DNA of 64,000 nucleotides. Origin: an uncultured Bacillota bacterium (lineage in GTDB: Bacteria > Bacillota_I > Bacilli_A > RFN20 > CAG-449). The position numbers and the translations under genes are program-made. The stretch covers positions 4,506 to 68,505 of the forward strand of contig CAJKZK010000001.1 of assembly GCA_905204225.1 (NCBI GenBank), read 5' to 3'. A model generated the notes under the pieces. The model ran no database searches, was not told where the DNA came from, and saw only the letters and a program-made list of their open reading frames with translations. Below are positions 7,020 through 29,365 of the stretch, piece by piece. The first letter of the stretch is position 1. Each line of letters opens with the position of its first letter.

Positions 7020-7372
7020 TGGCAAAAGAAAAAGAAGTTGAAGTAGTTGCAGAAAGAAAATTTGCTGCTCCAACACTTAAAGCATTAGATGTTATTATTG
7101 CTCCAGTTGTTACTGAAAAAACAATGAAACTTCAACAAGAAGAAAATAAAGTTACTGTTAAAGTTTCACCAAAAGCAAATAAAACAGAAGTTAAAATTGC
7201 TTTTGAATCAATCTTCAATGTAAAAGTTGTTGATGTAAATATTGTAAACGTCCGTGCTAAAGCTAAAAGAGTTGGACGTTATGAAGGTAAAGTTTCAGGC
7301 TATAAGAAAGCAATCATTACTTTATCTCCAGAAGAAAACTTAAATTTAATGGCACAAGATGCTGCTAAATAA
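7019..7372 (+). CDS. rplW: 50S ribosomal protein L23
   Basis: TAATG overlap with rplD. L23 sequence. Confidence 0.93.
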   Translation: MAKEKEVEVVAERKFAAPTLKALDVIIAPVVTEKTMKLQQEENKVTVKVSPKANKTEVKIAFESIFNVKVVDVNIVNVRAKAKRVGRYEGKVSGYKKAIITLSPEENLNLMAQDAAK

Positions 7373-7410
7373 TTAAGTATATTATATAAGATAAATATAG
7401 GAGAAAAAAT

Positions 7411-8244
7411 ATGTCAATAAGAGGTTATAAACCAACGACTCCAAGTCGCCGTCATATGACGAATTCCACATTTAGTGAAATTACAACTTCCACTCCTGAA
7501 AAAAGCTTGTTAGTTTCTATTAAGAAAACAGGTGGTCGTAACAATAATGGTTGTATCACAACACGCCATATCGGAGGTGGACATAAAAGAAAGTACAGAA
7601 TTATCGATTTCAAAAGAAATAAAGATGATATCTTAGGTACTGTAGCAACTGTTGAATACGATCCAAATAGAAATGCAAATATCTGCTTAATTAATTATCT
7701 TGATGGTGAAAAAAGATACATTATCGCACCACAAGGATTAAAAGTTGGAGATAAGATTGTTTCAGGAGATGCTTGTGATATTAAAACAGGTAATGCAATG
7801 CAACTTGCAAATATTCCTGAAGGTACATTAGTTCATAACGTTGAACTTGCACCTGGTAAAGGTGGACAAATGTGCCGTGCTGCTGGAACTTCTGCTCAAG
7901 TTCTTGGTAGAGAAGGTAAATATACAATTTTACGTTTAGCTTCTGGTGAAGTTAGAAAAGTTCTTAGTACATGCCGTGCAACAATTGGTGCTGTTGGCAA
8001 TGAAGATTGGAACTTAGTTAACTTTGGTAAAGCTGGTAAATCAAGATGGTTAGGCGTTCGTCCTACTGTTCGTGGTTCTGTAATGAACCCTAATGATCAC
8101 CCACATGGTGGTGGTGAAGGTAAATGTCCTGTTGGACGTGATGCTCCTAGAACACCTTGGGGTAAACGTGCTCTTGGTGTCAAGACTAGAGATACTAAAA
8201 AAGCAAGTAATAAATTAATCGTCAGAAGACGTAATGGTAAATAG
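7411..8244 (+). CDS. rplB: 50S ribosomal protein L2
   Basis: L2 motifs ([14 protein letters not shown]). Confidence 0.96.
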
Positions 8245-13356: not shown

Positions 13357-13959
13357 ATGGCAGAAGAACAAAAAGTAGTTACTCCAGAAGTAACAGAAAA
13401 AGCTCCTGAGCAAGCAACAAAAGCTCCTAGAGAAAACAAAGGAAATCGTAAACCTAACGGAAAAGGACCTCGTAAATTTAACAAAGGTGCTAAACGTGAA
13501 GAAAAATTATACGAAGAAAGAGTTGTTGCAATCAATCGTGTATCTAAAACTGTTAAAGGTGGACGTCATATGCGTTTCGCTGTATTAATGGTTATTGGTG
13601 ATGGAAAAGGTAATTTTGGTTTCGGAACTGGCAAAGCTGGCGAAGTACCAGAAGCAATCAAAAAAGCATTAGCAGCAGCTAAAAATAACATGTATCATAT
13701 TAACATTGTTAAAGGTGGTACAGTTCCACATGATGTTATGGGTGAATACTCAGCATCAAAAGTTTACTTAAAACCAGCTAAAGAAGGTACTGGTATCATC
13801 GCTGGTGGTCCAGTTCGTGCTGTCTTAGAATTAGCAGGTATTAAGAACATCGTTTCAAAAGTTTATGGTTCAAGAACACCTATTAACTGTATTCGTGCTA
13901 CTATAAACGGTCTTAACTCAATGAAAACAGTTGCTCAAGTTGAAGCAATTCGTAAATAG
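13357..13959 (+). CDS. rpsE: 30S ribosomal protein S5 with a Lys/Pro-rich N-terminal extension of about 35 aa
   Basis: S5 core sequence. Strong RBS at the annotated start supports the extension. Confidence 0.93.
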
Positions 13960-19778: not shown

Positions 19779-19792
19779 TTATCTTAATTTGT

Positions 19793-19818
19793 AAAACGCA
19801 CTTCGGTGCGTTTTTATT
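19793..19818 (+). terminator. Rho-independent terminator after rplQ (stem CGCAC/GTGCG, loop TTCG, T-run). This is copy 1 of a duplicated 35-nt element.
   Basis: aaaacgcacttcggtgcgtttttattatgcttaaa, read directly from the sequence. Confidence 0.8.
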
Positions 19819-19840
19819 ATGCTTAAAAATAAAACTTAAT

Positions 19841-19871
19841 TTGACAAACTAGACGGGGGGGGGGTTATAAT
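19841..19871 (+). promoter_or_regulatory. Sigma-A-type promoter with perfect TTGACA (19841-19846) and TATAAT (19866-19871) hexamers and a 19-bp spacer containing a G10 tract (19855-19864)
   Basis: Hexamers and homopolymer read directly. Lies about 25 bp upstream of the LytTR regulator start. Confidence 0.6.
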
Positions 19872-19896: not shown

Positions 19897-20610
19897 ATGA
19901 TTAGGATTGCTATAGTAGATGATGATACTACCGATGCAGAAACATTAGAAAATATTTTAAAAAAATATGAAAAAGAACATTCTAATGTTAATTTTTACAT
20001 TAAAAAATTTTCTACAGCAATTGCTTTTTTAGATAAATATCAACCATTTGATATAGTTTTTATGGATATTGAAATGCCAACAATGACAGGTATGGAAGCA
20101 TGTTATAAACTAAGAGAAATTGATCAAACAATAGCAATTATATTTGTCACAAATATGGCACAATTTGCAGTTGAAGGTTATATTGTTAGAGCATTTGATT
20201 TTGCAGTTAAGCCAATTAGTTATGGTAATTTGGCGTTAAAATTAGATAGAGTAATAGAGTATATTTCTCATTTTACTGGGAAAATAATACATATTAAAAC
20301 ACCTGAAAAAACATTACAAATTTCTTTAGAAGAAATTATTTATATTGATATTTATAATTATATTCTTACATATCATACTATTAATGATAAAATCGATGTA
20401 ACTACTACAAGCTTATTAGATATAGAAAAACAATTAATAAATTATGGATTTTTTAAAATCAATAGAAGTACAATAGTTAATCTAAAATATATAAAATCTG
20501 TTAAAGATACATTAGTTGATGTTAATGGTAATATTTTAACTTTATCAAGAAGAAGAAAAAAAGAATTTATGGAAAAATTAACAGAATATTTTGGAGAAAG
20601 CAATATTTAA
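19897..20610 (+). CDS. LytTR-family response regulator (receiver domain plus LytTR DNA-binding domain). Start taken at the ATG at 19897 (MIRIAIVDDD).
   Basis: Receiver aspartate context IVFMDIEMP. C-terminal LytTR-like region. RBS GAGG. Confidence 0.8.
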   Translation: MIRIAIVDDDTTDAETLENILKKYEKEHSNVNFYIKKFSTAIAFLDKYQPFDIVFMDIEMPTMTGMEACYKLREIDQTIAIIFVTNMAQFAVEGYIVRAFDFAVKPISYGNLALKLDRVIEYISHFTGKIIHIKTPEKTLQISLEEIIYIDIYNYILTYHTINDKIDVTTTSLLDIEKQLINYGFFKINRSTIVNLKYIKSVKDTLVDVNGNILTLSRRRKKEFMEKLTEYFGESNI

Positions 20611-20611
20611 T

Positions 20612-21964
20612 ATGTCAAATTTATTTTTCTTTAGACCCTTATTTATGTTAGAACTAATTTTAGCAGAAGCAATGTTTCTTTCAAAATTAAATATAAGAAC
20701 TAATTTTTTTATAAGATTGATTATTTCTTTGATTTTTTGCTTTGGTGTTTCTTTTATTTTACCAACAAATTTTGAAAATATTTATTATTATTCTTTTTTA
20801 TTTTTAATAATGTTTTTGGTTACTATTATAGCGAGTATGTTTTGTTTTAAAGCACCTCTTAAAAATATTTTATTTTGTGCAATTGCTGGATATACTATAC
20901 AACATATTGCTTCAGAATGTTATGAAATGTTTAATAATTATATGAACTTGATTATTGAAAAATCATTTAATTTTTATGATGCTGAAGGCACTATTGATAT
21001 AAATGCACAAAATTATTTCTTTTTATTAGTCTATTTTGCTATTTTTGTAATTATTTATGGCTTAGTATATTATTTAATTGTACCTAAAGTTGAAAAATAC
21101 AAAGTTTTACAAACTAACAATAAAGTAATATTATCTTTATCAATTTTTATTGTTTTAATTGATGTTATTATAGGAGCAATAATTTTATTTATTTTACCTG
21201 AAAAATATTTAGTGTCATTATCAAAATTAGTAAAATTTAGTGTATATTTTTTATTACATTTTTATAACATTTTATGTTGTGTTTTAGCAATAGTATTATT
21301 AATTGAGCTACCTCGCCGTAGTAGTGCGGAAAGTGATTTAATAACTGTTAATAAATTATATAAAATAGAACAATCACAATACAATTCAGTAAAAGAAAAT
21401 TTAGATTTAATTAATATTAAATGTCACGATTTAAAGCATCAAATGAGAAATATACTTAATAATAAACAAGTAGACACAAGTGAAATAAATAAAATAGAGC
21501 AAGCAATTGATATTTATGATTCTACATATAAAACAAAAAATGAAGCATTAAATATTGTATTAATGGAAAAAGGGTTAATATGTAAAAAAAATAAAATCGA
21601 ATTAACTTGTATAATAGATGCATCAAAATTATCTTTTATTAAAGATAATGATATTTATTCATTATTTGGCAATTTATTAGATAATGCGATTGAGGCAGTA
21701 AAAAATCTTGAACAAAGTAAAAGAGTAATTAGTTTGCAAATAAAGAATAGTGGAGAATTTTTAATTATAAAAACATATAATAATTATAATGGAAAAATCA
21801 ACTTTGTTAATAATTTACCAATTACAACAAAAGAAGATAAAGATTATCATGGATATGGATTAAAAAGCATTAATTATATTGTTAAATCTTATGATGGACA
21901 AATGAAAATAAAAACTAATAATCAAGTTTTTGATTTGACAATTCTTTTTCAAACAAACAAATAA
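20612..21964 (+). CDS. AgrC/HPK10-like membrane sensor histidine kinase (about 6 TM helices plus GHKL ATPase)
   Basis: N-terminal polytopic region. H-box KCHDLKHQ. C-terminal LLDNAIEA...HGYGL GHKL motifs. Translationally coupled to the upstream response regulator. Confidence 0.7.
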   Translation: MSNLFFFRPLFMLELILAEAMFLSKLNIRTNFFIRLIISLIFCFGVSFILPTNFENIYYYSFLFLIMFLVTIIASMFCFKAPLKNILFCAIAGYTIQHIASECYEMFNNYMNLIIEKSFNFYDAEGTIDINAQNYFFLLVYFAIFVIIYGLVYYLIVPKVEKYKVLQTNNKVILSLSIFIVLIDVIIGAIILFILPEKYLVSLSKLVKFSVYFLLHFYNILCCVLAIVLLIELPRRSSAESDLITVNKLYKIEQSQYNSVKENLDLINIKCHDLKHQMRNILNNKQVDTSEINKIEQAIDIYDSTYKTKNEALNIVLMEKGLICKKNKIELTCIIDASKLSFIKDNDIYSLFGNLLDNAIEAVKNLEQSKRVISLQIKNSGEFLIIKTYNNYNGKINFVNNLPITTKEDKDYHGYGLKSINYIVKSYDGQMKIKTNNQVFDLTILFQTNK

Positions 21965-21968
21965 ATAC

Positions 21969-21999
21969 CATTCACAAGATATAATAAATCATTCACAAG
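21969..21999 (+). promoter_or_regulatory. LytTR-box-like direct repeat: CATTCACAAG at 21969-21978 and 21990-21999, 21 bp between repeat starts, upstream of the 22088 lipoprotein gene
   Basis: Perfect 10-bp direct repeat read directly. This architecture is known for AgrA/ComE/PlnC operators. Confidence 0.5.
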
Positions 22000-22087
22000 T
22001 AAAGTATTTTCATTTCTTTACTTGTTTTTTATTATTAGTTCGCTTATAAAAGCAGTTTTTGTGCTTTTTAAGTAGAGGGAGGAAAAT

Positions 22088-23638
22088 ATGAAAATTAAAT
22101 CAAAACTTTTACTTTTGATTTCATTTATGTTGCCAATTTTTTCGTTAACAAGTTGTAATGAAACTCCTAAACATGTTTGTAATGAACCATGTCCAACATG
22201 TGGAGGTTGTCTTGATAATAAATGTCAAGAAGAAGCATGCTTAACAAAATGTAGTTGTGAAGTAATAGTTAAATCAGTGGATATAACAAGTATGCCGTTA
22301 AAAACAAATTATTATCCAGGAGAGATTTTTTCACCTGAAGGTTTAGTGGTTAAAGCTAATTTATCAAATGGAAAAACAAAAAAATATAGTTATAGAAAAT
22401 TTGATACTTGGACTCATAAGGACGAACCATTAACTGAAGATATTAAAAAAATCACTTTTACAATTCCGAAATATAATTTTGATTTTGATGTAGAGATTAA
22501 AGTTGAATTACCTAATGATTTATCTATTGTTGTTGATAAAAGTTTACTAAAAGAAACATATTTAACTACTGATATTATTGATTTTACAATAATAAATGTT
22601 AGAGCTAAAATTGGTGAAACAATGACTTTGCTAAAAGCTGATCAATGGAAATTATATGATGGTACAAATCTTATCGAAGATAAAACACAGGTAAGTCTAA
22701 GTGAAGGTGAACATTTAATAAAAATTGAATATGTACCAACTGTTGATTATAGTTTTACTTTAAAAATAAATGATCCAAATAATGTTATTTCTCCAGATCA
22801 TGTTGAAGCAGAAGATTGTGTTTATAATATAGACTCAAACGCACCATACACAATTAAAGAAAAAGTTGCAAATGCTCAATATCCTGATGAAAATGGTAAT
22901 TTATCAGATCAATTATTTAAAAAAATACCAAATGGAGCAAGTGGTACAGGAGCAGTTTCATCATTATCTGCATCACAAAATGGTAAGAATGTCTATTTTA
23001 AATTTAATATTAAAGTTCCTACAACTGGCGAATATGATTTATTAGCAAGAGTGCAAGGAACAGGTGAAAATCAAATTAAAAATAATTTTAAAGTTTCTAT
23101 TAATAATGGTGAAGAAATGATTTCAACAAGCACTGATACAATTCATGCTGGTAATCAAATTAAAAATCAATATGGTAAAGAAGGTTTTATTGGTTGGTAT
23201 AACATGTTTTGGTGGAATGTTGTCAATATTGGAACATATTCACTTACAAAAGGTGATAATGAAATAAAAATTACAATGCCAAAAGGATTAGGTGGAAATA
23301 TTGATTATTTTGAAGTTGTAAGTAAAGGTGAAATACATGAAACTCAATTATTTAGTATGAGAGAAGGAAGTAGAGTAAATTTATCAACAAATCCAATTTA
23401 TTTAAAATATGGTGAAAAATTAATAGATAAAGTAGCTACACCAATTGGTCACCCATGTAAATATACATTAATTTATTTAAGACTAGATGATGGTTGTGAA
23501 ATTCCTGTAACTGAAGATTTAATGAACGAAATTGATTATACCAAAACTGGTGAGCAAGAAGTAAATATAACATTTACTAAAAAAGAAAAAACATATAATG
23601 CTTCATTCAAAATAATAATTGAAGCTGAAGAAGAATAG
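22088..23638 (+). CDS. Surface lipoprotein with a Cys-rich N-terminal segment, a CBM6/CBM35-like carbohydrate-binding module and an Ig-like domain
   Basis: Lipobox LTSC. 10 Cys within about 35 aa after the signal peptide. EAEDCVY...GEYDLLARVQG...WWN...NIDYFEV jelly-roll motif shared with the next gene. Confidence 0.6.
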   Translation: MKIKSKLLLLISFMLPIFSLTSCNETPKHVCNEPCPTCGGCLDNKCQEEACLTKCSCEVIVKSVDITSMPLKTNYYPGEIFSPEGLVVKANLSNGKTKKYSYRKFDTWTHKDEPLTEDIKKITFTIPKYNFDFDVEIKVELPNDLSIVVDKSLLKETYLTTDIIDFTIINVRAKIGETMTLLKADQWKLYDGTNLIEDKTQVSLSEGEHLIKIEYVPTVDYSFTLKINDPNNVISPDHVEAEDCVYNIDSNAPYTIKEKVANAQYPDENGNLSDQLFKKIPNGASGTGAVSSLSASQNGKNVYFKFNIKVPTTGEYDLLARVQGTGENQIKNNFKVSINNGEEMISTSTDTIHAGNQIKNQYGKEGFIGWYNMFWWNVVNIGTYSLTKGDNEIKITMPKGLGGNIDYFEVVSKGEIHETQLFSMREGSRVNLSTNPIYLKYGEKLIDKVATPIGHPCKYTLIYLRLDDGCEIPVTEDLMNEIDYTKTGEQEVNITFTKKEKTYNASFKIIIEAEEE

Positions 23639-23648
23639 AGGAAAAAAT

Positions 23649-23780
23649 ATGGAAAAAAATATGTATTACACTCCAATTATAAGTGTAAAGAAAATTAATT
23701 TAGATGATGTAATTTGTGTCTCTTTTGATACAAAAGATGAAAATAACATTTATCAAAATGTTGATGTAACATTGGATTAA
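23649..23780 (+). CDS. Unannotated 43-aa ORF (MEKNMYYTPIISVKKINLDDVICVSFDTKDENNIYQNVDVTLD) with strong RBS AGAGGA, exactly filling the gap between the two CBM-protein genes
   Basis: ATG 8 nt after the RBS. Has a homologue at 33343-33480. No signal peptide. Confidence 0.4.
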   Translation: MEKNMYYTPIISVKKINLDDVICVSFDTKDENNIYQNVDVTLD

Positions 23781-23794
23781 GATGAGGTTATAAA

Positions 23795-26032
23795 ATGAAA
23801 AAATATAATAAATTAATGATATTATCATTATCAATGTTAATGATGATACCTTCAATAATTGTTAATAATGAAAACTCATTAATATGTTCTACAACTGATG
23901 TATTTAATGAAAAAGCACATATTGAAACAAGATTACTTAATCAATTAACTGATACTAATGAAACTGTAAAATGTTCTAATATGTATGTACAATATGGTTA
24001 TGATGGAACTAATTATTATTTAAGATACGCTACTGCAATTAAAGGTGATATTGAAACATTAAATTACAAAATGTTTATTAATGATGAAGAATATATTGCT
24101 GGAGAAAAAAATGCAGATGTTTTATACAAAAGCATATTATCTAATGGTACTAGACAATATTATAATGGTAACGAATTAACAACTACTCCAACTGAATATT
24201 TATGGACTTGCTATACTATAAAATTTGCTAGTGAAAAACATCAAGCAGATAATATAGCTGTTTATTTAAATATAAATAATGCAAACACTGTTTCTAAATC
24301 AACATCATTATTAGAAGAAATGAATGTTGAACCAGATCATATTGAAGCAGAAGATTGTGTTTATTTACTTGAAAATGATAATAAATACACTTTAAGTGAA
24401 GCTTCAGCAAATGCTCAATATCCTGATGAAAATGGTAATTTATCAGATCAATTATTTAAACAAATACCAAATGGAGCAAGTGGTAAAGGTGCAGTTTCTT
24501 CATTATCTAAAGGACAAAATGGTACAAAAGTATATTTTGAATTTACTGTTAACGCTCCAACTTCTGGAGAATATGAACTTTTAGCGAGAGTACAAGGAAC
24601 AGGTGAAAGCTCAATTAATGGATTATTTAATGTAAGTATTAATGGTGAAGAAGGAACTTTAAATACTTCAAATGATAAAATACTTAAAGGTAATCAATTA
24701 AAAGAACAATATAACACATCTAGTGATTATTTGAGTTGGTATAACATGTTTTGGTGGAATATGGTTAATATTGGAACATATTCTTTAAATAAAGGTGAAA
24801 ACACAATAAAAATCACATTGCCTAATGGATTAAGTGGTAATATTGATTATTTTGAAATTCAAAACAAAAATAGTGCAAAAACATCTAAAATTTTCAGTTT
24901 TAGAGAAGGATCAAGAAATGAATTATCAACAAATAATGGATTAACTTTAATTGAAAATGGATTATTATCTGATAAGTCTGGTACTCCAGCAAATCACCCT
25001 TGTAAATATACTTTAATGTATATAAGATTATTAGATGGTAGTGAACACCCAATTACTGAAGAAATGTTAACTAATTATAGTAATATTGATTATACAAAAG
25101 TTGACCAAGAACAAATTGTAACAATTAATTATAAAGAAAATACAGCGTCTTTTAAATTATTTATTGTTAAAGAAAATTATGATATTTATGAAGCAGAAGA
25201 TAATGTTTATAAGTATAAAAATGGAGAAGAAACCACAAATAAATATGCTTCAGTTAACAATTTAACTAATATAGAATATTATGAAAATGAAACATTAAAG
25301 TCAGAACAAACTAAAGATGGCTCAAGCAATAAAAAAGTTATAGCTTTAGGTGCAGGTGCTAGCAATCATGGTAAAGAAGTTTTCTTTAAATTTGAAGTAA
25401 ATGTACAAGAAACAAAAGATTATTATTTATTTTCAAGATTACAATCTTCAAATGAAAATGATTTGATTAATTGTTTTGAAATTAATATAAATGAAGAAAA
25501 AGATGAAAATGGAAAATTAAAATATTATAAAAATAATTATAGTCAAATTCCTTCATTATGTAATCAAACAACAACATTTAATAATGTATGGAATAATGCA
25601 ATGTGGTTTGGTATGGCAAATTTAGGAAAAATTCATTTAACTAAAGGAAACAATATAATTAGAGTTCGTATGCCAAATGGAATAAGTGCGAATATTGATT
25701 TCTTCCAAGTTAGAGAAACAGATTCATTTGGTGCAAATTTATTTACAGTAAGAGATGGATCACATACTAAACTTGATTCATTAACACTTGAAAAAAATCA
25801 AAAAATTACTGATATTATTTCAACTCCTAGTGCACACCCATATCAATATACATTAATGTATTTAAGATTACCAAATGGTAATGAGTATCCTGTTGTTACA
25901 AAACCTAGCGAAGGAACAAATGTAAATTATGTTGGTGTTTTAAGTGATATTGATTATACTTTATCTTCTCAAAAAGTCACCGTTACTAACGGAAATTACA
26001 AATTATCATTTACTTTAAATATAAATTTATAG
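23795..26032 (+). CDS. Secreted surface protein with two CBM6/CBM35-like modules and Ig-like domains (paralogue of the 22088 gene)
   Basis: Signal peptide. Two copies of the EAED...YxLxxRxQ...WxN...NIDxF module, the first closely similar to the 22088 protein. Confidence 0.6.
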   Translation: MKKYNKLMILSLSMLMMIPSIIVNNENSLICSTTDVFNEKAHIETRLLNQLTDTNETVKCSNMYVQYGYDGTNYYLRYATAIKGDIETLNYKMFINDEEYIAGEKNADVLYKSILSNGTRQYYNGNELTTTPTEYLWTCYTIKFASEKHQADNIAVYLNINNANTVSKSTSLLEEMNVEPDHIEAEDCVYLLENDNKYTLSEASANAQYPDENGNLSDQLFKQIPNGASGKGAVSSLSKGQNGTKVYFEFTVNAPTSGEYELLARVQGTGESSINGLFNVSINGEEGTLNTSNDKILKGNQLKEQYNTSSDYLSWYNMFWWNMVNIGTYSLNKGENTIKITLPNGLSGNIDYFEIQNKNSAKTSKIFSFREGSRNELSTNNGLTLIENGLLSDKSGTPANHPCKYTLMYIRLLDGSEHPITEEMLTNYSNIDYTKVDQEQIVTINYKENTASFKLFIVKENYDIYEAEDNVYKYKNGEETTNKYASVNNLTNIEYYENETLKSEQTKDGSSNKKVIALGAGASNHGKEVFFKFEVNVQETKDYYLFSRLQSSNENDLINCFEININEEKDENGKLKYYKNNYSQIPSLCNQTTTFNNVWNNAMWFGMANLGKIHLTKGNNIIRVRMPNGISANIDFFQVRETDSFGANLFTVRDGSHTKLDSLTLEKNQKITDIISTPSAHPYQYTLMYLRLPNGNEYPVVTKPSEGTNVNYVGVLSDIDYTLSSQKVTVTNGNYKLSFTLNINL

Positions 26033-26040
26033 GTTTAAAT

Positions 26041-29000
26041 ATGGAAAAATCACTTTTAAGAAAAGTAATTATTTTACCTTGCATGGCCGTAATATTAGCT
26101 GGCCTTGCAGTAGGTAATTACGAATGTTATATTCATGAAAATGAAATTACATCTCAACTTGTTCCTGCTAAAATAACTTATGATAATTCAAAATTATCAG
26201 AAGCACAAATGGCGGCAGGTAATGTTGTCAATCAAATAGCTCAAGAAGGTATGACATTAATGAAAAATGATGGAACATTACCTTTAGAAATTGATGAAGA
26301 CGATGAAGATGGTTATCCAATCAATTTATTTGGAATAGGAAGTACTGATGCCGAAAATGGCTTTTACTTATTTGGTGGTGGCTCTGGTTCTGTAACTTTA
26401 TATGATAAAGATAAAGTTACTTTACAACAAGGAATTGAACAAGCTGGCTTTGAAGTTAATACTTCCTTACTAAATTTCTTTAAAGAAGAAGGAGAAAATC
26501 CTAAAGAAAGTTGGTGGGAAAAAGAACAAAATATTCTTAAATCAGCAAAAGCATTTTCTGATACAGCTGTAGTAACTATATCAAGATTTACTGGTGAAAA
26601 TTGTGATGCTGATGAAAATACAACTGATCAAACTTCATATTCATTTAGTAAACCTTATCAAGCATCTTATAATGATAATGATTTAGATGGTAGAAATTTT
26701 TGTCAATTATCATTAAGAGAAGAAGCTATGTTAAAGTGGGTTAGCAATAATTTTGGTGAAGTAATAGTTTTAATCAATAGTGGAAACATGATGGAATTAG
26801 GTTTTTTAGACAATCCTAAAATTAATGCTATTTTGTATACTTCATATCCAGGAAAATCTGGAACAAAAGCAATAGGAGATATTCTAGCTGGAAAAGTAAA
26901 TCCAAGTGGACATTTAACTGATACTTTTGTTTATGATACCAAAAGTGATCCAACATGGGCTAATGTTATTGCTAAAAAAGATAATGGTACACAAATTCAC
27001 TATGTAGAAGATATTTATACTGGGTATAGATGGTATGAAACAGCTGACAAAGAAGGATATTTTAATTCTATTGGTAAAAACTATAATGAAGTTGTTTTTA
27101 GACCATTTGGATATGGATTATCTTATACAACATTTGAATGGAATTTTAAAAATATTTCTTTTAAAAATGGTGATACAATTATACCAGCAATTAATGGAGA
27201 TAATGTTAAAGATAAAGATACAAAAATTTTAATTCAGGTTGAAGTAAAAAATACTGGATTAGTCGCTGGTAAAGATGTTGTTCAATTATATTACACCGCA
27301 CCATACACAAAAGGTGGTATTGAAAAAGCGTATGTTAATTTAGTTGCATTTGAAAAAACAGAGATGCTATATCCACTTTCTCAATCAAGTGAAGACAAGC
27401 CGAATAGTCAAATTTTGTCTTTAGAATTTAGCTTGTATGATATGGCAAGTTATGATGCTTATGATAAAAATAAAAATAATTTTACAGGGTATGAACTTGA
27501 AAAAGGTGAATATCAATTAAAATTACAAAATAATGCTCATGAATTAAATAAGTGTGAAAATAGTACTATTAAAATAAATTTAACTAATGATTTAAAATGG
27601 GATAAAGATCCAAATACAAATGGAACTATAAAAAATAGATTTACAGGTTCGACAGCTGAAAACAATATTCCAATTGATGGTAATAATAATGGTGAAAAAA
27701 TAACATATTTGTCAAGAGCAGATTTTTTATCAACATTTCCAAAAACAACTACTCCAAATAGAACTTCAGGAGCAGATTCTACTAAAGATGGAACTTATGT
27801 TACAGATGAAGAATATTATAAAGATATTACAATGCCAACTTTAAATAGTACTGAAACAAATTTATTATTATATACTTTAGAAAATGGTGAAAAAGCGTCA
27901 ACTAATGATTTAAGTGGATATACAAACAATAAAATAATTCCTAACGAAGAATTAATTTTAAAATTAGGTGAAAACTATGATGCACCTGAATGGGAACAAT
28001 TATTGAATCAATTATCATATATAGAAATAGTTGATATTGTTGCTCGTTGTAGTTGTGGAACAGCTCCAGCTGAATCTATTGGAAAACCTAAAACAAGAGT
28101 TTTTGATGGACCTCAAGGAATTAACAATTCAACACTTTCTCCAGAACAATTAGCTGATGTAACTGCATTTCCAGCTGAAACTTTAGTAGGTATGACTTTT
28201 AACAAAGAACTTGCTAGATTAGAAGGTGCGGCAATGGCAACTGAAGCTTCATTAACAGGAACAATAGGAATATATGCTCCAGCAGTTGATTTGCATCGTC
28301 ATGCTTATAATGGTAGAAATTATGAACAATATAGTGAAGATCCTTATTTATGTGGAATTATGGGTGGTAAAATGGCAACAGGTGCTATTACACATGGTTG
28401 TCAAGTCTCTATAAAACATTTTGTTTGTTCTCAACCTGGAAGAAATCCTAGAGACTATAATACATGGTTAACAGAACAAAATTTAAGAGAAAATTATCTA
28501 AAACCGTTTGAAATTGCTATTAAAGAAAGTAAAGCAAATTTCTTGATGACATCATTTAATAACATAGGCGGAGTAAGATGTGCTTATTCTTATCAATTGT
28601 TAAATGGAGTATTAAGAGAAGAATGGGGATTCAAAGGATCAATTATTACGGATTATGATGTTAATAGTGCATCAAGAACTACTGCAAATTTAATTAGATC
28701 TGGTAATGATTTAAGATTCCAAGGAAGTGTTGCTAATAGAGCAGAACTTGATAAAAACAATGTAGTTGATGTTTATTTAGCTAGACAATCTGTAAAAAGA
28801 GACTTATGGTCATTTTGTAATACATATTATAGAACTAAAAATTATGATCCAAATTACACGTCAACAAATGTTATTGTCACTCAACCATTTGTATGGTGGA
28901 TAATGGTAGTAATAATGATAGATGTGATAATTATAGGTGGAATTGGTGTAGGAATTTTCTTCTTATTTAAGCCAAAGAAAAAAGCACTAGTAAATAATAT

Positions 29001-29193
29001 TGAGACAGATAGTTCTCAAGAAAAATCTGAACATAAATTTTTATACAAAAAGAAAGAAAATCTTTCTTCAACTAGCGCTCAAAATGTTGTAATTGATAAT
29101 AACCAAGAAAAATTTTCTATATCAAAAAAAGATTATGAAGAACTCATTGATTTAATTGATAAATTACAAGATAAATTAAAAAAATTAAAATAA
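26041..29193 (+). CDS. Glycoside hydrolase family 3 (beta-glucosidase/xylosidase-like) with permuted domain order and N- and C-terminal TM anchors
   Basis: GH3 C-domain-like region first (MKNDGTLPL, VNPSGHL, FGYGLSYTTF), then GH3 N-domain motifs (KHF, GFKGSIITDYD with catalytic Asp). One TM helix near each terminus. Confidence 0.65.
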   Translation: MEKSLLRKVIILPCMAVILAGLAVGNYECYIHENEITSQLVPAKITYDNSKLSEAQMAAGNVVNQIAQEGMTLMKNDGTLPLEIDEDDEDGYPINLFGIGSTDAENGFYLFGGGSGSVTLYDKDKVTLQQGIEQAGFEVNTSLLNFFKEEGENPKESWWEKEQNILKSAKAFSDTAVVTISRFTGENCDADENTTDQTSYSFSKPYQASYNDNDLDGRNFCQLSLREEAMLKWVSNNFGEVIVLINSGNMMELGFLDNPKINAILYTSYPGKSGTKAIGDILAGKVNPSGHLTDTFVYDTKSDPTWANVIAKKDNGTQIHYVEDIYTGYRWYETADKEGYFNSIGKNYNEVVFRPFGYGLSYTTFEWNFKNISFKNGDTIIPAINGDNVKDKDTKILIQVEVKNTGLVAGKDVVQLYYTAPYTKGGIEKAYVNLVAFEKTEMLYPLSQSSEDKPNSQILSLEFSLYDMASYDAYDKNKNNFTGYELEKGEYQLKLQNNAHELNKCENSTIKINLTNDLKWDKDPNTNGTIKNRFTGSTAENNIPIDGNNNGEKITYLSRADFLSTFPKTTTPNRTSGADSTKDGTYVTDEEYYKDITMPTLNSTETNLLLYTLENGEKASTNDLSGYTNNKIIPNEELILKLGENYDAPEWEQLLNQLSYIEIVDIVARCSCGTAPAESIGKPKTRVFDGPQGINNSTLSPEQLADVTAFPAETLVGMTFNKELARLEGAAMATEASLTGTIGIYAPAVDLHRHAYNGRNYEQYSEDPYLCGIMGGKMATGAITHGCQVSIKHFVCSQPGRNPRDYNTWLTEQNLRENYLKPFEIAIKESKANFLMTSFNNIGGVRCAYSYQLLNGVLREEWGFKGSIITDYDVNSASRTTANLIRSGNDLRFQGSVANRAELDKNNVVDVYLARQSVKRDLWSFCNTYYRTKNYDPNYTSTNVIVTQPFVWWIMVVIMIDVIIIGGIGVGIFFLFKPKKKALVNNIETDSSQEKSEHKFLYKKKENLSSTSAQNVVIDNNQEKFSISKKDYEELIDLIDKLQDKLKKLK

Positions 29194-29198
29194 TTGTA

Positions 29199-29225
29199 TA
29201 AAACGCACTTTGGTGCGTTTTTATT
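29199..29225 (+). terminator. Rho-independent terminator after the GH3 gene. This is copy 2 of the duplicated 35-nt element (one loop base differs from the copy at 19793).
   Basis: aaaacgcactttggtgcgtttttattatgcttaaa, read directly from the sequence. Confidence 0.8.
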
Positions 29226-29365
29226 ATGCTTAAACTAAATATTATAATTTAGAAAAACAAACAAAAGAAATAAAATATGAAATTGTTAAAACTAGTAGTT
29301 ATATTGCAACTGCTGAAGAAATAATTCTTCAACCATTAAATTAATTCAAAAAATTATAAAATTTA

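What the first reader, a model, noticed from the sequence alone, without database searches (positions are those of the whole stretch)
21969..21999. Perfect 10-bp direct repeat at 21-bp periodicity (LytTR-box-like) upstream of the first CBM lipoprotein gene
CATTCACAAG occurs twice (21969-21978 and 21990-21999). Two turns of helix separate the repeat starts. This is exactly the architecture bound by AgrA/ComE/PlnC-type LytTR regulators (9-10 bp repeats with a 12-bp spacer). It lies immediately downstream of the LytTR/HK pair and about 90 bp upstream of the 22088 ATG. This links the possibly phase-variable TCS to expression of the glycan-binding surface proteins and the GH3.
Basis: partly seen in the sequence, partly recalled or inferred. 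Interest (0 to 1): 0.7.

Follow-up and report, generated by a model that had tools for sequence, protein, structure and literature searches.

The report
Predicted LytTR regulator binding site
A pair of 10-base repeats two helical turns apart is very probably the docking site through which the neighbouring two-component regulator switches on an operon for sugar-binding surface proteins and a beta-glucosidase-like enzyme; the same layout recurs in many gut Firmicutes, but nobody has tested binding.

Summary
CATTCACAAG occurs exactly twice, at 21969-21978 and 21990-21999, and nowhere else in the window. The repeat alone is not significant: this 27.5% GC window holds 11 comparable exact 10-mer repeats, against about 9 expected.

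The support comes from related loci.
- Kinase homologues at 55-56% identity sit in the same module (regulator, kinase, Big_3 lipoprotein, GH3). They carry the same motif (CCGTTCACNAG) twice, 21 bp apart, in the same intergenic gap.
- Across 82 homologous loci, near-perfect repeats just downstream of the kinase gene peak sharply at 21 bp: 20 loci, against 0-4 for every other spacing.
- Repeat 2 sits 7 nt upstream of a -35/17 nt/-10 promoter, at the same distances in the window and two relatives.
- 53 of 73 loci have the same domain-permuted GH3 downstream.

This is the 10 bp + 11 bp spacer, upstream-of-the-35 layout shown experimentally for SilA, and the 21-bp period known for ComE and AgrA.

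I conclude it is a new member of a known operator type (confidence about 0.8). Binding and activation remain untested.

Two additional findings: the regulator's own promoter has a G8-G12 tract that varies between near-identical strains, and the kinase gene's terminator hairpin is embedded in the target promoter.

The parts
19793..19814 (+). Intrinsic terminator after rplQ. It marks the left edge of the five-gene island.
   Evidence: Terminator scan: 9-bp stem with 4 GC pairs, followed by a T-run. A 35/36-identical copy follows the GH3 gene.
19841..19871 (+). Promoter of the two-component operon: TTGACA (19841-46), a 19-nt spacer containing G10 (19855-64), and TATAAT (19866-71).
   Evidence: Read directly from the sequence. 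G-tract length in near-identical strains is 8, 9, 10, 11 or 12, and the tract is interrupted in two others. L096 is identical to the window over 2077 bp except at this tract. Relatives have TTGACA-17-TAnAAT here with no G-run and no direct repeat.
19897..20610 (+). Response regulator with a receiver domain and a LytTR DNA-binding domain (237 aa).
   Evidence: Pfam Response_reg 8.5e-18 and LytTR 6.5e-13. The exact protein occurs on 21 or more metagenome contigs.
20612..21964 (+). AgrC/ComD-type (HPK10-like) histidine kinase, 450 aa.
   Evidence: Pfam HATPase_c_5 1.4e-25. About 6 transmembrane segments and an H272 HDLKH box. N- and G-box residues are invariant in a 28-sequence alignment.
21969..21978 (+). 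Direct repeat 1 (CATTCACAAG; extended form ACCATTCACAAG from 21967). Proposed distal half-site for the regulator.
   Evidence: Orthologous half-sites are CCGTTCACCAG (L002) and GCCGTTCACAAG (L006).
21979..21989 (+). 11-bp AT-rich spacer (ATATAATAAAT).
   Evidence: Its sequence is not conserved in orthologues, but its length is.
21990..21999 (+). Direct repeat 2 (CATTCACAAG). Proposed promoter-proximal half-site.
   Evidence: It lies 7 nt upstream of the candidate -35, the same distance as in L002 and L055.
21995..22031 (+). Hairpin ACAAGTAAAG / CTTTACTTGT with an 11-nt loop, followed by T6. Inferred terminator of the regulator-kinase transcript. It overlaps repeat 2 and carries the -35 hexamer in its loop.
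   Evidence: Inverted repeat I22. RNA fold -11.7 kcal/mol, z = -4.1. L002 and L055 have analogous hairpin + U-run structures built from different stem sequences; L006 has none.
22007..22035 (+). Candidate regulator-dependent promoter: TTTTCA (-35), 17 nt, TATTAT (-10).
   Evidence: Promoter scan, 9/12. On its own this match is not above the shuffle background. The support is positional agreement with TTGAAA-17-TATAAT in L002 and TTGAAA-17-TATGTT in L055 when the loci are aligned on repeat 2.
22088..23638 (+). Lipoprotein, 516 aa, with Big_3 and CBM35-like domains. First gene of the target operon.
   Evidence: Lipobox LTSC. Big_3 8.1e-08. AlphaFold model pLDDT 86, Foldseek hits to CBM35 structures.
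23649..23780 (+). Small ORF of 43 aa between the two surface-protein genes.
   Evidence: Read from the sequence and called as a gene in L001. Function unknown. Absent in L002 and L006.
23795..26032 (+). Secreted or anchored protein, 745 aa. Paralogue of the lipoprotein's C-terminal half.
   Evidence: 745-aa proteins of the same family (probable near-identical orthologues from related strains) are 53% identical to the lipoprotein over 54% of its length. Weak CBM-like and CBM35 sequence matches. Hydrophobic N-terminus.
26041..29193 (+). GH3 beta-glucosidase-like enzyme, 1050 aa, with permuted domain order (GH3_C before GH3_N) and an N-terminal membrane anchor.
   Evidence: Pfam. PDB sequence matches to beta-glucosidases such as 2x40 and 5k6l. 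N-terminus. A homologue lies downstream of the kinase in 53 of 73 related loci.
29200..29226 (+). Terminator after the GH3 gene, a duplicate of the rplQ terminator. It marks the right edge of the island and the end of the target operon.

Best explanation
The two CATTCACAAG copies are the operator of the LytTR response regulator encoded immediately upstream.

**Proposed mechanism**
1. The regulator-kinase pair is transcribed from its own sigma-70 type promoter (TTGACA, spacer containing a G-run, TATAAT).
2. That transcript probably ends at a hairpin + T-run lying inside the next promoter. Target expression would then depend on activation rather than read-through.
3. The kinase phosphorylates the regulator in response to an unknown signal.
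4. Two LytTR domains then bind in tandem to the two half-sites, one per repeat, on the same face of the helix (21-bp period).
5. Because the proximal half-site ends 7 nt before a weak -35 (TTTTCA-17-TATTAT), the bound dimer recruits RNA polymerase.
6. This turns on the operon: CBM35/Big_3 lipoprotein, 43-aa ORF, 745-aa paralogue, GH3.

**Shown here**
- The repeat and its exact position.
- The domain content of the neighbouring genes.
- Conservation of motif, spacing and position in orthologues.
- Family-wide 21-bp periodicity.
- The family-wide link of this kinase clade to the GH3 gene.

**Inferred, not shown**
- Binding of the regulator to the repeats.
- Activation rather than repression.
- The transcription start.
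- The terminator role of the hairpin.
- The signal sensed by the kinase.
For: 1. **Cognate regulator next door.** Receiver + LytTR regulator and HATPase_c_5 kinase.
2. **Same motif in orthologues.** In L002/L101 the site reads CCGTTCACCAG-N10-CCGTTTACAGG, and in L006 GCCGTTCACAAG-N9-GCCGTTCACCAG. Both are 21 bp start to start and both lie in the kinase-lipoprotein gap. The kinases are only 55-56% identical, GC content is very different and the flanking genes differ. The degenerate pair pattern, written from these three sites, matches once in each of these loci and always in that gap; this shows it is unique within each locus, not an independent test.
3. **Family-wide periodicity.** In 82 loci, direct repeats of at least 9/10 within 250 bp downstream of the kinase occur at spacing 21 in 20 loci. 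Every other spacing from 12 to 33 gives 0-4 loci. Controls inside the kinase gene give 2 and 0. At a threshold of 8/10 the counts are 36 against 12 or fewer.
4. **Fixed promoter geometry.** Repeat 2, then 7 nt, then -35, then 17 nt, then -10 is identical in the window, L002 and L055. Most other loci show TTGAnn beginning about 4-10 nt after repeat 2.
5. **Same motif at two promoters in one locus.** L032 has ATTCGTGCG twice at 21 bp both upstream of its regulator gene and downstream of its kinase gene.
6. **Conserved targets.** The first large gene downstream is the same permuted GH3 or a Big_3 protein in 9 of 9 loci scanned. A GH3 homologue lies within 6 kb on the same strand in 53 of 73 loci.
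7. **Published architecture matches.** SilA uses 10-bp repeats with an 11-bp AT-rich spacer, and changing the spacer by 1 nt abolishes activity (PMC2766830). ComE uses 9 bp + a 12-mer linker (PMC4005675). AgrA sites are 12-13 bp apart, upstream of the -35, with consensus [TA][AC][CA]GTTN[AG][TG] (PMC5600425). The orthologue half-site ACCGTTCAC fits 7 of 8 specified consensus positions by inspection; the window half-sites fit 6 and 5.
8. **No competing RNA family.** No Rfam family matches the region.
Against: - There is no experimental evidence of binding, of a transcription start or of regulation.
- Within the window alone, an exact 10-mer repeat at a short spacing is not unusual.
- The candidate promoter match (9/12) is no better than background in this AT-rich DNA: 46 promoter-like sites found against 41 expected.
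- The window half-sites have A where the LytTR consensus and the orthologues have the core G, and score only 6/8 and 5/8.
- The regulator's LytTR domain is too divergent to match solved LytTR structures by sequence; only its receiver domain matched.
- The 3' half of repeat 2 is also the 5' arm of a hairpin, so part of its sequence may be constrained for another reason.
- No second site was found in the 64 kb window. Regulon size could not be assessed.
Confidence: 0.8

Rival explanations
1. Chance repeat. In AT-rich intergenic DNA, a 10-mer repeated once at a short distance arises by chance or by local slippage and has no function.
For: The window holds 11 non-low-complexity exact repeats of at least 10 nt at spacings 11-40, against 8.7 in shuffles. 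Another 21-bp-spaced one lies in a coding region.
Against: The same motif, at the same spacing and in the same gap, occurs in L002/L101 and L006 despite about 45% kinase divergence and a large GC difference. By my own estimate with uniform base frequencies, finding two 10-mers within 2 or fewer mismatches of the window repeat at fixed spacing within 250 nt has a probability of about 4e-5. The family-wide peak at 21 bp points the same way.
Confidence: 0.04
2. Terminator by-product. The conserved sequence is there because it forms the intrinsic terminator of the kinase gene. Repeat 2 is simply the 5' arm of the stem, and repeat 1 is an incidental duplicate.
For: ACAAG of repeat 2 pairs with CTTGT in a 10-bp stem followed by T6, with a fold z-score of -4.1. 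L002 and L055 have equivalent hairpins at the same place.
Against: - Only 5 of the 10 repeat bases are in the stem, and repeat 1 is wholly outside it.
- The stem sequences differ between loci while the repeat motif is conserved.
- L006 keeps both repeats but has no hairpin.
- A terminator does not explain a 21-bp repeat period in 20 or more loci.

The two functions are compatible, one acting on RNA and the other on DNA.
Confidence: 0.05
3. A real operator, but used differently. Either the repeats are bound by a different regulator encoded elsewhere, or the adjacent LytTR regulator binds them to repress or block rather than activate.
For: No binding data exist. LytTR proteins can act negatively in some systems (my own knowledge). 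The window lacks a second site that would tie the motif to this regulator.
Against: The repeat co-occurs with this regulator-kinase clade in many genomic contexts. Its sequence changes along with the two-component system between distant loci, yet is shared by the two sites within L032. Its position abutting a weak -35 is the activator position in AgrA, ComE and SilA.
Confidence: 0.1

Closest known systems
SilA/SilB operator of the Streptococcus pyogenes sil locus
   Same: Two 10-bp direct repeats separated by an 11-bp AT-rich spacer, bound by a LytTR response regulator and placed upstream of the regulated promoters. In sil the exact spacing is essential, and the system behaves as an autonomous local unit (PMC2766830).
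   Different: - sil is a peptide quorum-sensing locus with a pheromone gene and an exporter, and it controls bacteriocin-like genes. No pheromone or exporter gene is present in this island.
- Here the targets are a CBM35 lipoprotein, its paralogue and a GH3.
- The repeat sequence differs.
ComE box of Streptococcus pneumoniae (comCDE, comAB, comX promoters)
   Same: Imperfect direct repeats DR1 and DR2 with a 21-bp period (9 bp + a 12-mer linker). The LytTR domains are arranged in tandem to match the repeats (PMC4005675).
   Different: ComE autoregulates its own operon. In the window no box precedes the regulator gene, although some relatives do have one. The biological output is also different.
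AgrA sites at the agr P2/P3 promoters of Staphylococcus aureus
   Same: Direct repeats 12-13 bp apart, immediately upstream of the -35. The consensus [TA][AC][CA]GTTN[AG][TG] is close to the orthologue half-site ACCGTTCAC. The kinase is an AgrC-type polytopic HATPase_c_5 protein (PMC5600425).
   Different: There are no AgrB or AgrD homologues here. The window half-sites carry A in place of the core G. The regulator's LytTR domain is too diverged for a sequence match to solved LytTR structures.
LytTR regulator + kinase pairs listed within Gram-positive polysaccharide utilisation loci of Roseburia
   Same: A LytTR response regulator and a histidine kinase are listed among the regulators of a CAZyme locus (Ros-7) in a gut Firmicute (PMC5320581).
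   Different: That paper is only an inventory, with no operator or mechanism described. The enzyme set differs (GH43/GH51, not the permuted GH3), and an ABC transporter is present, which this island lacks.
Homopolymer tracts in promoter spacers that give phase variation (for example Neisseria porA and opc, Mycoplasma vlp; from my own knowledge)
   Same: A G8-G12 tract lies between the -35 and -10 of the two-component operon promoter, and its length varies among near-identical strains.
   Different: Here the tract would switch a regulator, and through the repeats a whole operon, rather than a single surface-protein gene. An effect on expression has not been shown.

Membership tests
LytTR response-regulator operator (AgrA/ComE/SilA/PlnC type) | Two direct (not inverted) repeats of 9-10 bp | tested here: met
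   Exact 10-mers at 21969-78 and 21990-99.
LytTR response-regulator operator (AgrA/ComE/SilA/PlnC type) | Half-sites 21-22 bp apart start to start (9+12/13 or 10+11) | tested here: met
   21 bp in the window, L002, L006 and L104. Family-wide peak at 21 bp. Literature values.
LytTR response-regulator operator (AgrA/ComE/SilA/PlnC type) | Located just upstream of the -35 of the regulated promoter | tested here: inconclusive
   A candidate TTTTCA-17-TATTAT starts 7 nt after repeat 2. It aligns with near-consensus promoters in L002 and L055. There is no transcription-start data, and the window match alone is at background level.
LytTR response-regulator operator (AgrA/ComE/SilA/PlnC type) | Half-sites resemble [TA][AC][CA]GTTN[AG][TG] | tested here: inconclusive
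   The window scores 6/8 and 5/8. Orthologue ACCGTTCAC scores 7/8 by inspection. Pairs matching the generic consensus peak at 21 bp in the family: 9 loci against 0-4.
LytTR response-regulator operator (AgrA/ComE/SilA/PlnC type) | A LytTR-domain regulator is encoded with it | tested here: met
   Pfam LytTR 6.5e-13 in the gene at 19897-20610. A regulator gene lies directly upstream of the kinase in 81 of 84 related loci.
LytTR response-regulator operator (AgrA/ComE/SilA/PlnC type) | The site is conserved in orthologous loci | tested here: met
LytTR response-regulator operator (AgrA/ComE/SilA/PlnC type) | The regulator physically binds the repeats and transcription depends on them | not testable with these tools
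   Needs EMSA or footprinting and reporter or RNA-seq experiments.
Peptide quorum-sensing HPK10/LytTR systems (Agr, Com, Blp, Sil, Pln) | Polytopic HPK10-type kinase with a HATPase_c_5 domain | tested here: met
Peptide quorum-sensing HPK10/LytTR systems (Agr, Com, Blp, Sil, Pln) | Pheromone precursor and processing or export genes in the locus | tested here: not met
   The island holds only the regulator, kinase, lipoprotein, a 43-aa ORF, the 745-aa protein and GH3. No AgrB, AgrD or peptidase-ABC exporter domains were found. The 43-aa ORF shows no double-glycine leader on inspection and is absent from L002 and L006.
Peptide quorum-sensing HPK10/LytTR systems (Agr, Com, Blp, Sil, Pln) | Autoregulatory box upstream of the two-component operon | tested here: not met
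   None in the window or its closest relatives. Present in some distant relatives such as L032.
Phase-variable promoter (homopolymer in the -35/-10 spacer) | Homopolymer of at least 8 nt inside the spacer | tested here: met
   G10 at 19855-64 between TTGACA and TATAAT, giving a 19-nt spacer.
Phase-variable promoter (homopolymer in the -35/-10 spacer) | Tract length differs among otherwise near-identical strains | tested here: met
   Lengths G8 to G12 in 10 assemblies. L096 has 0 mismatches over 2077 bp apart from the tract. Homopolymer assembly error cannot be fully excluded.
Phase-variable promoter (homopolymer in the -35/-10 spacer) | Tract length switches expression on and off | not testable with these tools
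   Needs reporter fusions carrying G8 to G12, or read-level metatranscriptomics.

The most novel reading that the evidence does not exclude
The repeat may be the output end of a previously undescribed, widespread class of AgrC/AgrA-like two-component systems in gut Firmicutes that do not use a locally encoded peptide pheromone. Each such system would instead be dedicated to one local module: a permuted, membrane-anchored GH3 plus CBM35/Big_3 surface proteins, turned on through a private 21-bp-period operator. In this species the whole module would also be phase-variable, because the regulator-kinase promoter carries a hypermutable G8-G12 spacer tract. That would put a population-level ON/OFF switch over a glycan-foraging or glycan-binding surface phenotype, routed through a transcription factor rather than through the surface-protein genes themselves.
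Probability: 0.35. Interest if true: 0.65.

Novelty: new member of a known kind. Interest (0 to 1): 0.45.

Why it matters
AgrA/ComE-type systems are known mostly as peptide quorum-sensing switches for virulence, competence and bacteriocins.

**What is new here**
- The same operator logic appears wired to a carbohydrate-active surface module, with no pheromone genes in the locus.
- The wiring recurs across dozens of mostly uncultured gut Clostridia and Bacilli. A few cultured species have the same kinase-GH3 arrangement, such as Hungatella effluvii and Robinsoniella peoriensis.

**What it makes possible**
- It gives a concrete, testable cis-element for an uncharacterised regulator family.
- The family rule (21-bp repeat, then about 7 nt, then the -35) can be used to predict regulons in metagenome-assembled genomes.
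- It identifies a candidate case of a phase-variable regulator controlling glycan-binding surface proteins in a gut commensal.

The element itself is a conventional type, so the surprise for a specialist is moderate.

Tried and rejected
- **Regulon search in the window.** A search with a degenerate pair pattern and up to 3 mismatches found only the site itself and a 3-mismatch hit at 1537-1568. That hit lies inside a 372-aa ORF, so I rejected it as an operator.
- **Metagenome-wide scan.** The hits were almost all unrelated soil or water contigs and coding 21-nt tandem repeats. Only L133, which is the same contig as L006, was relevant. This says nothing about regulon size.
- **Regulator against solved structures.** A sequence search matched only receiver domains, not LytTR structures. 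Identification of the DNA-binding domain therefore rests on Pfam.
- **Rfam.** Neither the region nor the whole window gave anything at the repeats.
- **TATAAT in the spacer (21980-85) as a -10.** Rejected. No -35-like hexamer lies 16-18 nt upstream, and orthologue spacers have no TATAAT.
- **43-aa ORF as a pheromone precursor.** I see no support: no leader motif, and it is not conserved in L002 or L006.
- **Repeats as an insertion scar of the island.** Rejected. The island's flanking duplication is the rplQ terminator, and the repeats lie inside the island.
- **Organism.** Not identified. The closest named relatives of the kinase are Christensenellaceae, Clostridia, 'Mollicutes' and Bacilli metagenome-assembled genomes at 40% identity or less.
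Full report
**1. Observation**

The sequence at 21960-22000 reads aataaatacCATTCACAAGatataataaatCATTCACAAGt.
- The two 10-mers are exact, on the + strand, at 21969-78 and 21990-99.
- They are 21 bp apart start to start, with an 11-bp AT-rich spacer.
- They are the only exact copies in the window.
- Repeat 1 begins 5 nt after the kinase stop codon. Repeat 2 ends 88 nt before the ATG at 22088.

So the coordinates and description are right. Taken alone, the repeat is not remarkable.
- The window is 27.5% GC.
- It contains 20 exact direct repeats of at least 10 nt at spacings 11-40. Eleven of them are not low-complexity, against 8.7 in block shuffles.
- At spacing 21 there are two against 0.42 expected. 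The other one, at 13398, is inside an ORF.

**2. Context**

The repeat lies inside a five-gene island between two ribosomal-protein operons: rpoA-rplQ on the left and rplM-rpsI on the right. In order, the island contains:
- the rplQ terminator (19793-19814);
- a promoter TTGACA-N19-TATAAT whose spacer holds G10;
- a receiver + LytTR response regulator (19897-20610);
- a HATPase_c_5 kinase (20612-21964) with about six transmembrane segments and an HDLKH box;
- the repeats;
- a lipoprotein (lipobox LTSC) with a Big_3 domain;
- a 43-aa ORF;
- a 745-aa protein of the family whose members match the lipoprotein's C-terminal half at 53% identity;
- a 1050-aa GH3 with permuted domain order and an N-terminal anchor;
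- a terminator that is a 35/36 copy of the rplQ terminator.

The 'CBM' label is weak at sequence level. It is supported by structure: an AlphaFold model of the lipoprotein (pLDDT 86) matches CBM35 domains with probability 1.0 and target-normalised TM-scores of 0.5-0.67.

**3. Orthologous loci**

The kinase has about 1800 homologues. I retrieved contigs for those at 55-56% identity.
- They show the same order: regulator, kinase, Big_3 lipoprotein or large surface protein, GH3.
- Their genomic neighbourhoods are unrelated to the window's, and their GC content is much higher.
- In the kinase-lipoprotein gap, L002/L101 have ttttCCGTTCACCAGcaaaatagaaCCGTTTACAGG.
- In the same gap, L006 has GCCGTTCACAAGatttaatttGCCGTTCACCAG.
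- Both sites are 21 bp start to start.

A degenerate pair pattern covering the three versions matches exactly once per locus, always in that gap. Near-identical strains (L001, L090-L094, L097) have an unchanged repeat region, which is uninformative.

**4. Family-wide signal**

A scan of species-representative genomes with a kinase alignment returned 80 further loci at 29-40% identity. They are mostly Christensenellaceae, Clostridia, Bacilli or 'Mollicutes' metagenome-assembled genomes, plus a few cultured species. For each locus I asked, at each spacing from 12 to 33, whether a direct repeat of at least 9/10 (low complexity excluded) occurs within 250 bp after the kinase gene.

| Region and threshold | Loci at spacing 21 | Loci at any other spacing |
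|---|---|---|
| Downstream of kinase, at least 9/10 | 20 | 0-4 |
| Inside the kinase gene, two control windows, at least 9/10 | 2 and 0 | 0-7 |
| Downstream of kinase, at least 8/10 | 36 | 12 or fewer |

The repeat sequences differ between distant loci:
- ACCGAATAAG
- ATTCGTGCGG
- GCAAAATTCG
- CAGCTTACGA
- GTTCACGAAG

Many begin with ACC(G/A) and contain a GTT or TT core. Pairs matching the generic LytTR consensus also peak at 21 bp.

The region upstream of the regulator gene shows a weaker 21-bp peak: 7 loci at 9/10 or better. In L032 the same motif, ATTCGTGCG, is present at both places. That ties the motif to the local two-component system. The window and its closest relatives have no such upstream box. 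Their two-component promoters are near-consensus sigma-70 promoters.

**5. Promoter geometry**

When aligned on repeat 2, the window, L002 and L055 all show repeat 2, then 7 nt, then a -35 hexamer, then 17 nt, then a -10 hexamer.

| Locus | -35 | -10 |
|---|---|---|
| Window | TTTTCA | TATTAT |
| L002 | TTGAAA | TATAAT |
| L055 | TTGAAA | TATGTT |

Most other repeat-positive loci show TTGAnn starting 4-10 nt after the displayed repeat 2. The window's promoter match is at background level on its own: 46 sites found against 41 expected. Its positional agreement with strong promoters in the relatives is what makes it credible. The predicted start is near 22042, which places the half-sites at roughly -73..-64 and -52..-43.

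**6. Hairpin**

ACAAGTAAAG (21995-22004) pairs with CTTTACTTGT (22016-22025) and is followed by T6.
- The RNA fold is -11.7 kcal/mol with z = -4.1.
- The stem starts inside repeat 2, and the loop contains the -35 hexamer.
- L002 and L055 have hairpin + U-run structures at the same place, built from different stem sequences.
- L006 has a long gap before its repeats and has no such hairpin.

I read this as the terminator of the regulator-kinase transcript, packed into the target promoter. It would insulate the target operon from read-through. This is an inference. It does not explain repeat 1, the motif conservation or the 21-bp rule.

**7. Conserved targets**

In nine distant loci, the first large gene after the kinase is the same permuted GH3 (seven loci) or a Big_3 protein (two loci). 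By tblastn, a GH3 homologue lies within 6 kb downstream on the same strand in 53 of 73 loci that have enough flank. A regulator gene sits directly upstream of the kinase in 81 of 84 loci. The link between this two-component system and GH3 is therefore old and conserved, not a peculiarity of this genome.

**8. Comparison with known systems**

| System | Published architecture | Source |
|---|---|---|
| ComE | Two imperfect 9-bp repeats separated by a 12-mer linker; LytTR domains in tandem | PMC4005675, |
| SilA | Two 10-bp repeats with an 11-bp AT-rich spacer; a 1-nt spacer change abolishes activity | PMC2766830, |
| AgrA | Sites 12-13 bp apart, upstream of the -35; consensus [TA][AC][CA]GTTN[AG][TG] | PMC5600425, |

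The element here has the SilA layout exactly. Its orthologue half-site ACCGTTCAC fits 7 of 8 consensus positions. The window half-sites fit 6 and 5, with A in place of the core G.

It works like these operators and meets their sequence-level criteria. Physical binding is untested.

It is not a member of the peptide quorum-sensing systems in the full sense. No pheromone or exporter genes are in the island, and there is no autoregulatory box. LytTR regulator + kinase pairs have been listed next to CAZyme loci in Roseburia without further analysis (PMC5320581). I found no paper in the searchable library describing a LytTR-GH3 module.

**9. The G-tract**

The spacer of the two-component promoter holds G10, making it 19 nt. 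In near-identical strains the tract is G8 (L001, 17-nt spacer), G9, G10, G11 or G12. Two strains have an interrupted tract, GGGTGGGAG. L096 is identical to the window over 2077 bp except at this tract. Relatives at 55% identity have an ordinary 17-nt spacer containing only GGG.

This fits a hypermutable, probably phase-variable promoter. Assembly error at homopolymers cannot be fully excluded, and no expression data exist. If the tract is real, the repeats are the route by which the switch reaches the surface-protein and GH3 genes.

**10. Verdict**

- The element is a new, unverified member of the LytTR direct-repeat operator class (confidence about 0.8).
- The wider module and the G-tract give it moderate interest (0.45).
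- The signal sensed by the kinase, the size of the regulon and the organism's identity remain unknown.

Noticed in passing
window 19841-19871; L001, L090-L099: A G-run in the -35/-10 spacer of the regulator-kinase promoter varies from G8 to G12 among near-identical strains. It is interrupted (GGGTGGGAG) in two of them. L096 differs from the window only at this tract over 2077 bp. This is a likely phase-variable promoter.
   Followed up: partly
window 19792-19828 and 29199-29235: The rplQ terminator and about 15 nt after it are duplicated (35/36 identical) right after the GH3 gene. The five-gene island is therefore bracketed by a direct duplication of a terminator. This may be a trace of how the island was inserted.
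   Followed up: partly
window 21995-22031; L002 about 7418-7450; L055 about 7373-7405: A terminator-like hairpin starts inside repeat 2 and holds the -35 hexamer of the next promoter in its loop. It recurs in two diverged relatives with different stem sequences and is absent in L006.
   Followed up: partly
window 23649-23780: A 43-aa ORF (MEKNMYYTPIISVKK...) with its own ribosome-binding site lies between the two surface-protein genes. It is called as a gene in L001 but is absent from L002 and L006. Function unknown.
   Followed up: no
window 22088-23638 and 23795-26032: The lipoprotein's C-terminal 54% is 53% identical to 745-aa proteins of the family to which the neighbouring 745-aa gene appears to belong, so the two neighbours look like paralogues sharing the CBM35-like region.
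   Followed up: partly
L001 about 5388 and 7709; L090 (window equivalent 21535); L094 (window equivalent 22558); L097: Several natural variants carry disrupted module genes.
- L001: a 1-nt deletion in the regulator gene, and an in-frame TGA in the lipoprotein gene where the window has GGT.
- L090: +1 in an A-run of the kinase gene.
- L094: a 4-nt insertion in the lipoprotein gene.
- L097: a split kinase gene.

These may be real decay, real switching or assembly error.
   Followed up: partly
window 26041-29193 and related loci: The GH3 has permuted domain order: GH3_C, then GH3_N in the window protein, with an Fn3-like domain between them in most relatives. It has an N-terminal membrane anchor. 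This unusual form is the one that travels with this kinase clade.
   Followed up: partly
L032 802-832 and 3061-3091: One distant relative has the same 21-bp-spaced motif (ATTCGTGCG) both upstream of its regulator gene and downstream of its kinase gene. This implies autoregulation there, which the window lineage lacks.
   Followed up: partly
L110 4403-4433 (- strand) and 7186-7902 (- strand): An unrelated environmental contig has CATTCACCAG-N11-CATTCACAAG about 2.7 kb downstream of a gene for a LytTR-regulator homologue at 25% identity. It may be another system using a similar half-site, or coincidence.
   Followed up: no
window 13398-13428: This is the only other exact 10-mer repeat at 21-bp spacing in the window (AAAAGCTCCT). 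It lies inside an ORF of the ribosomal-protein cluster, so it is a coding-sequence repeat rather than an operator.
   Followed up: yes
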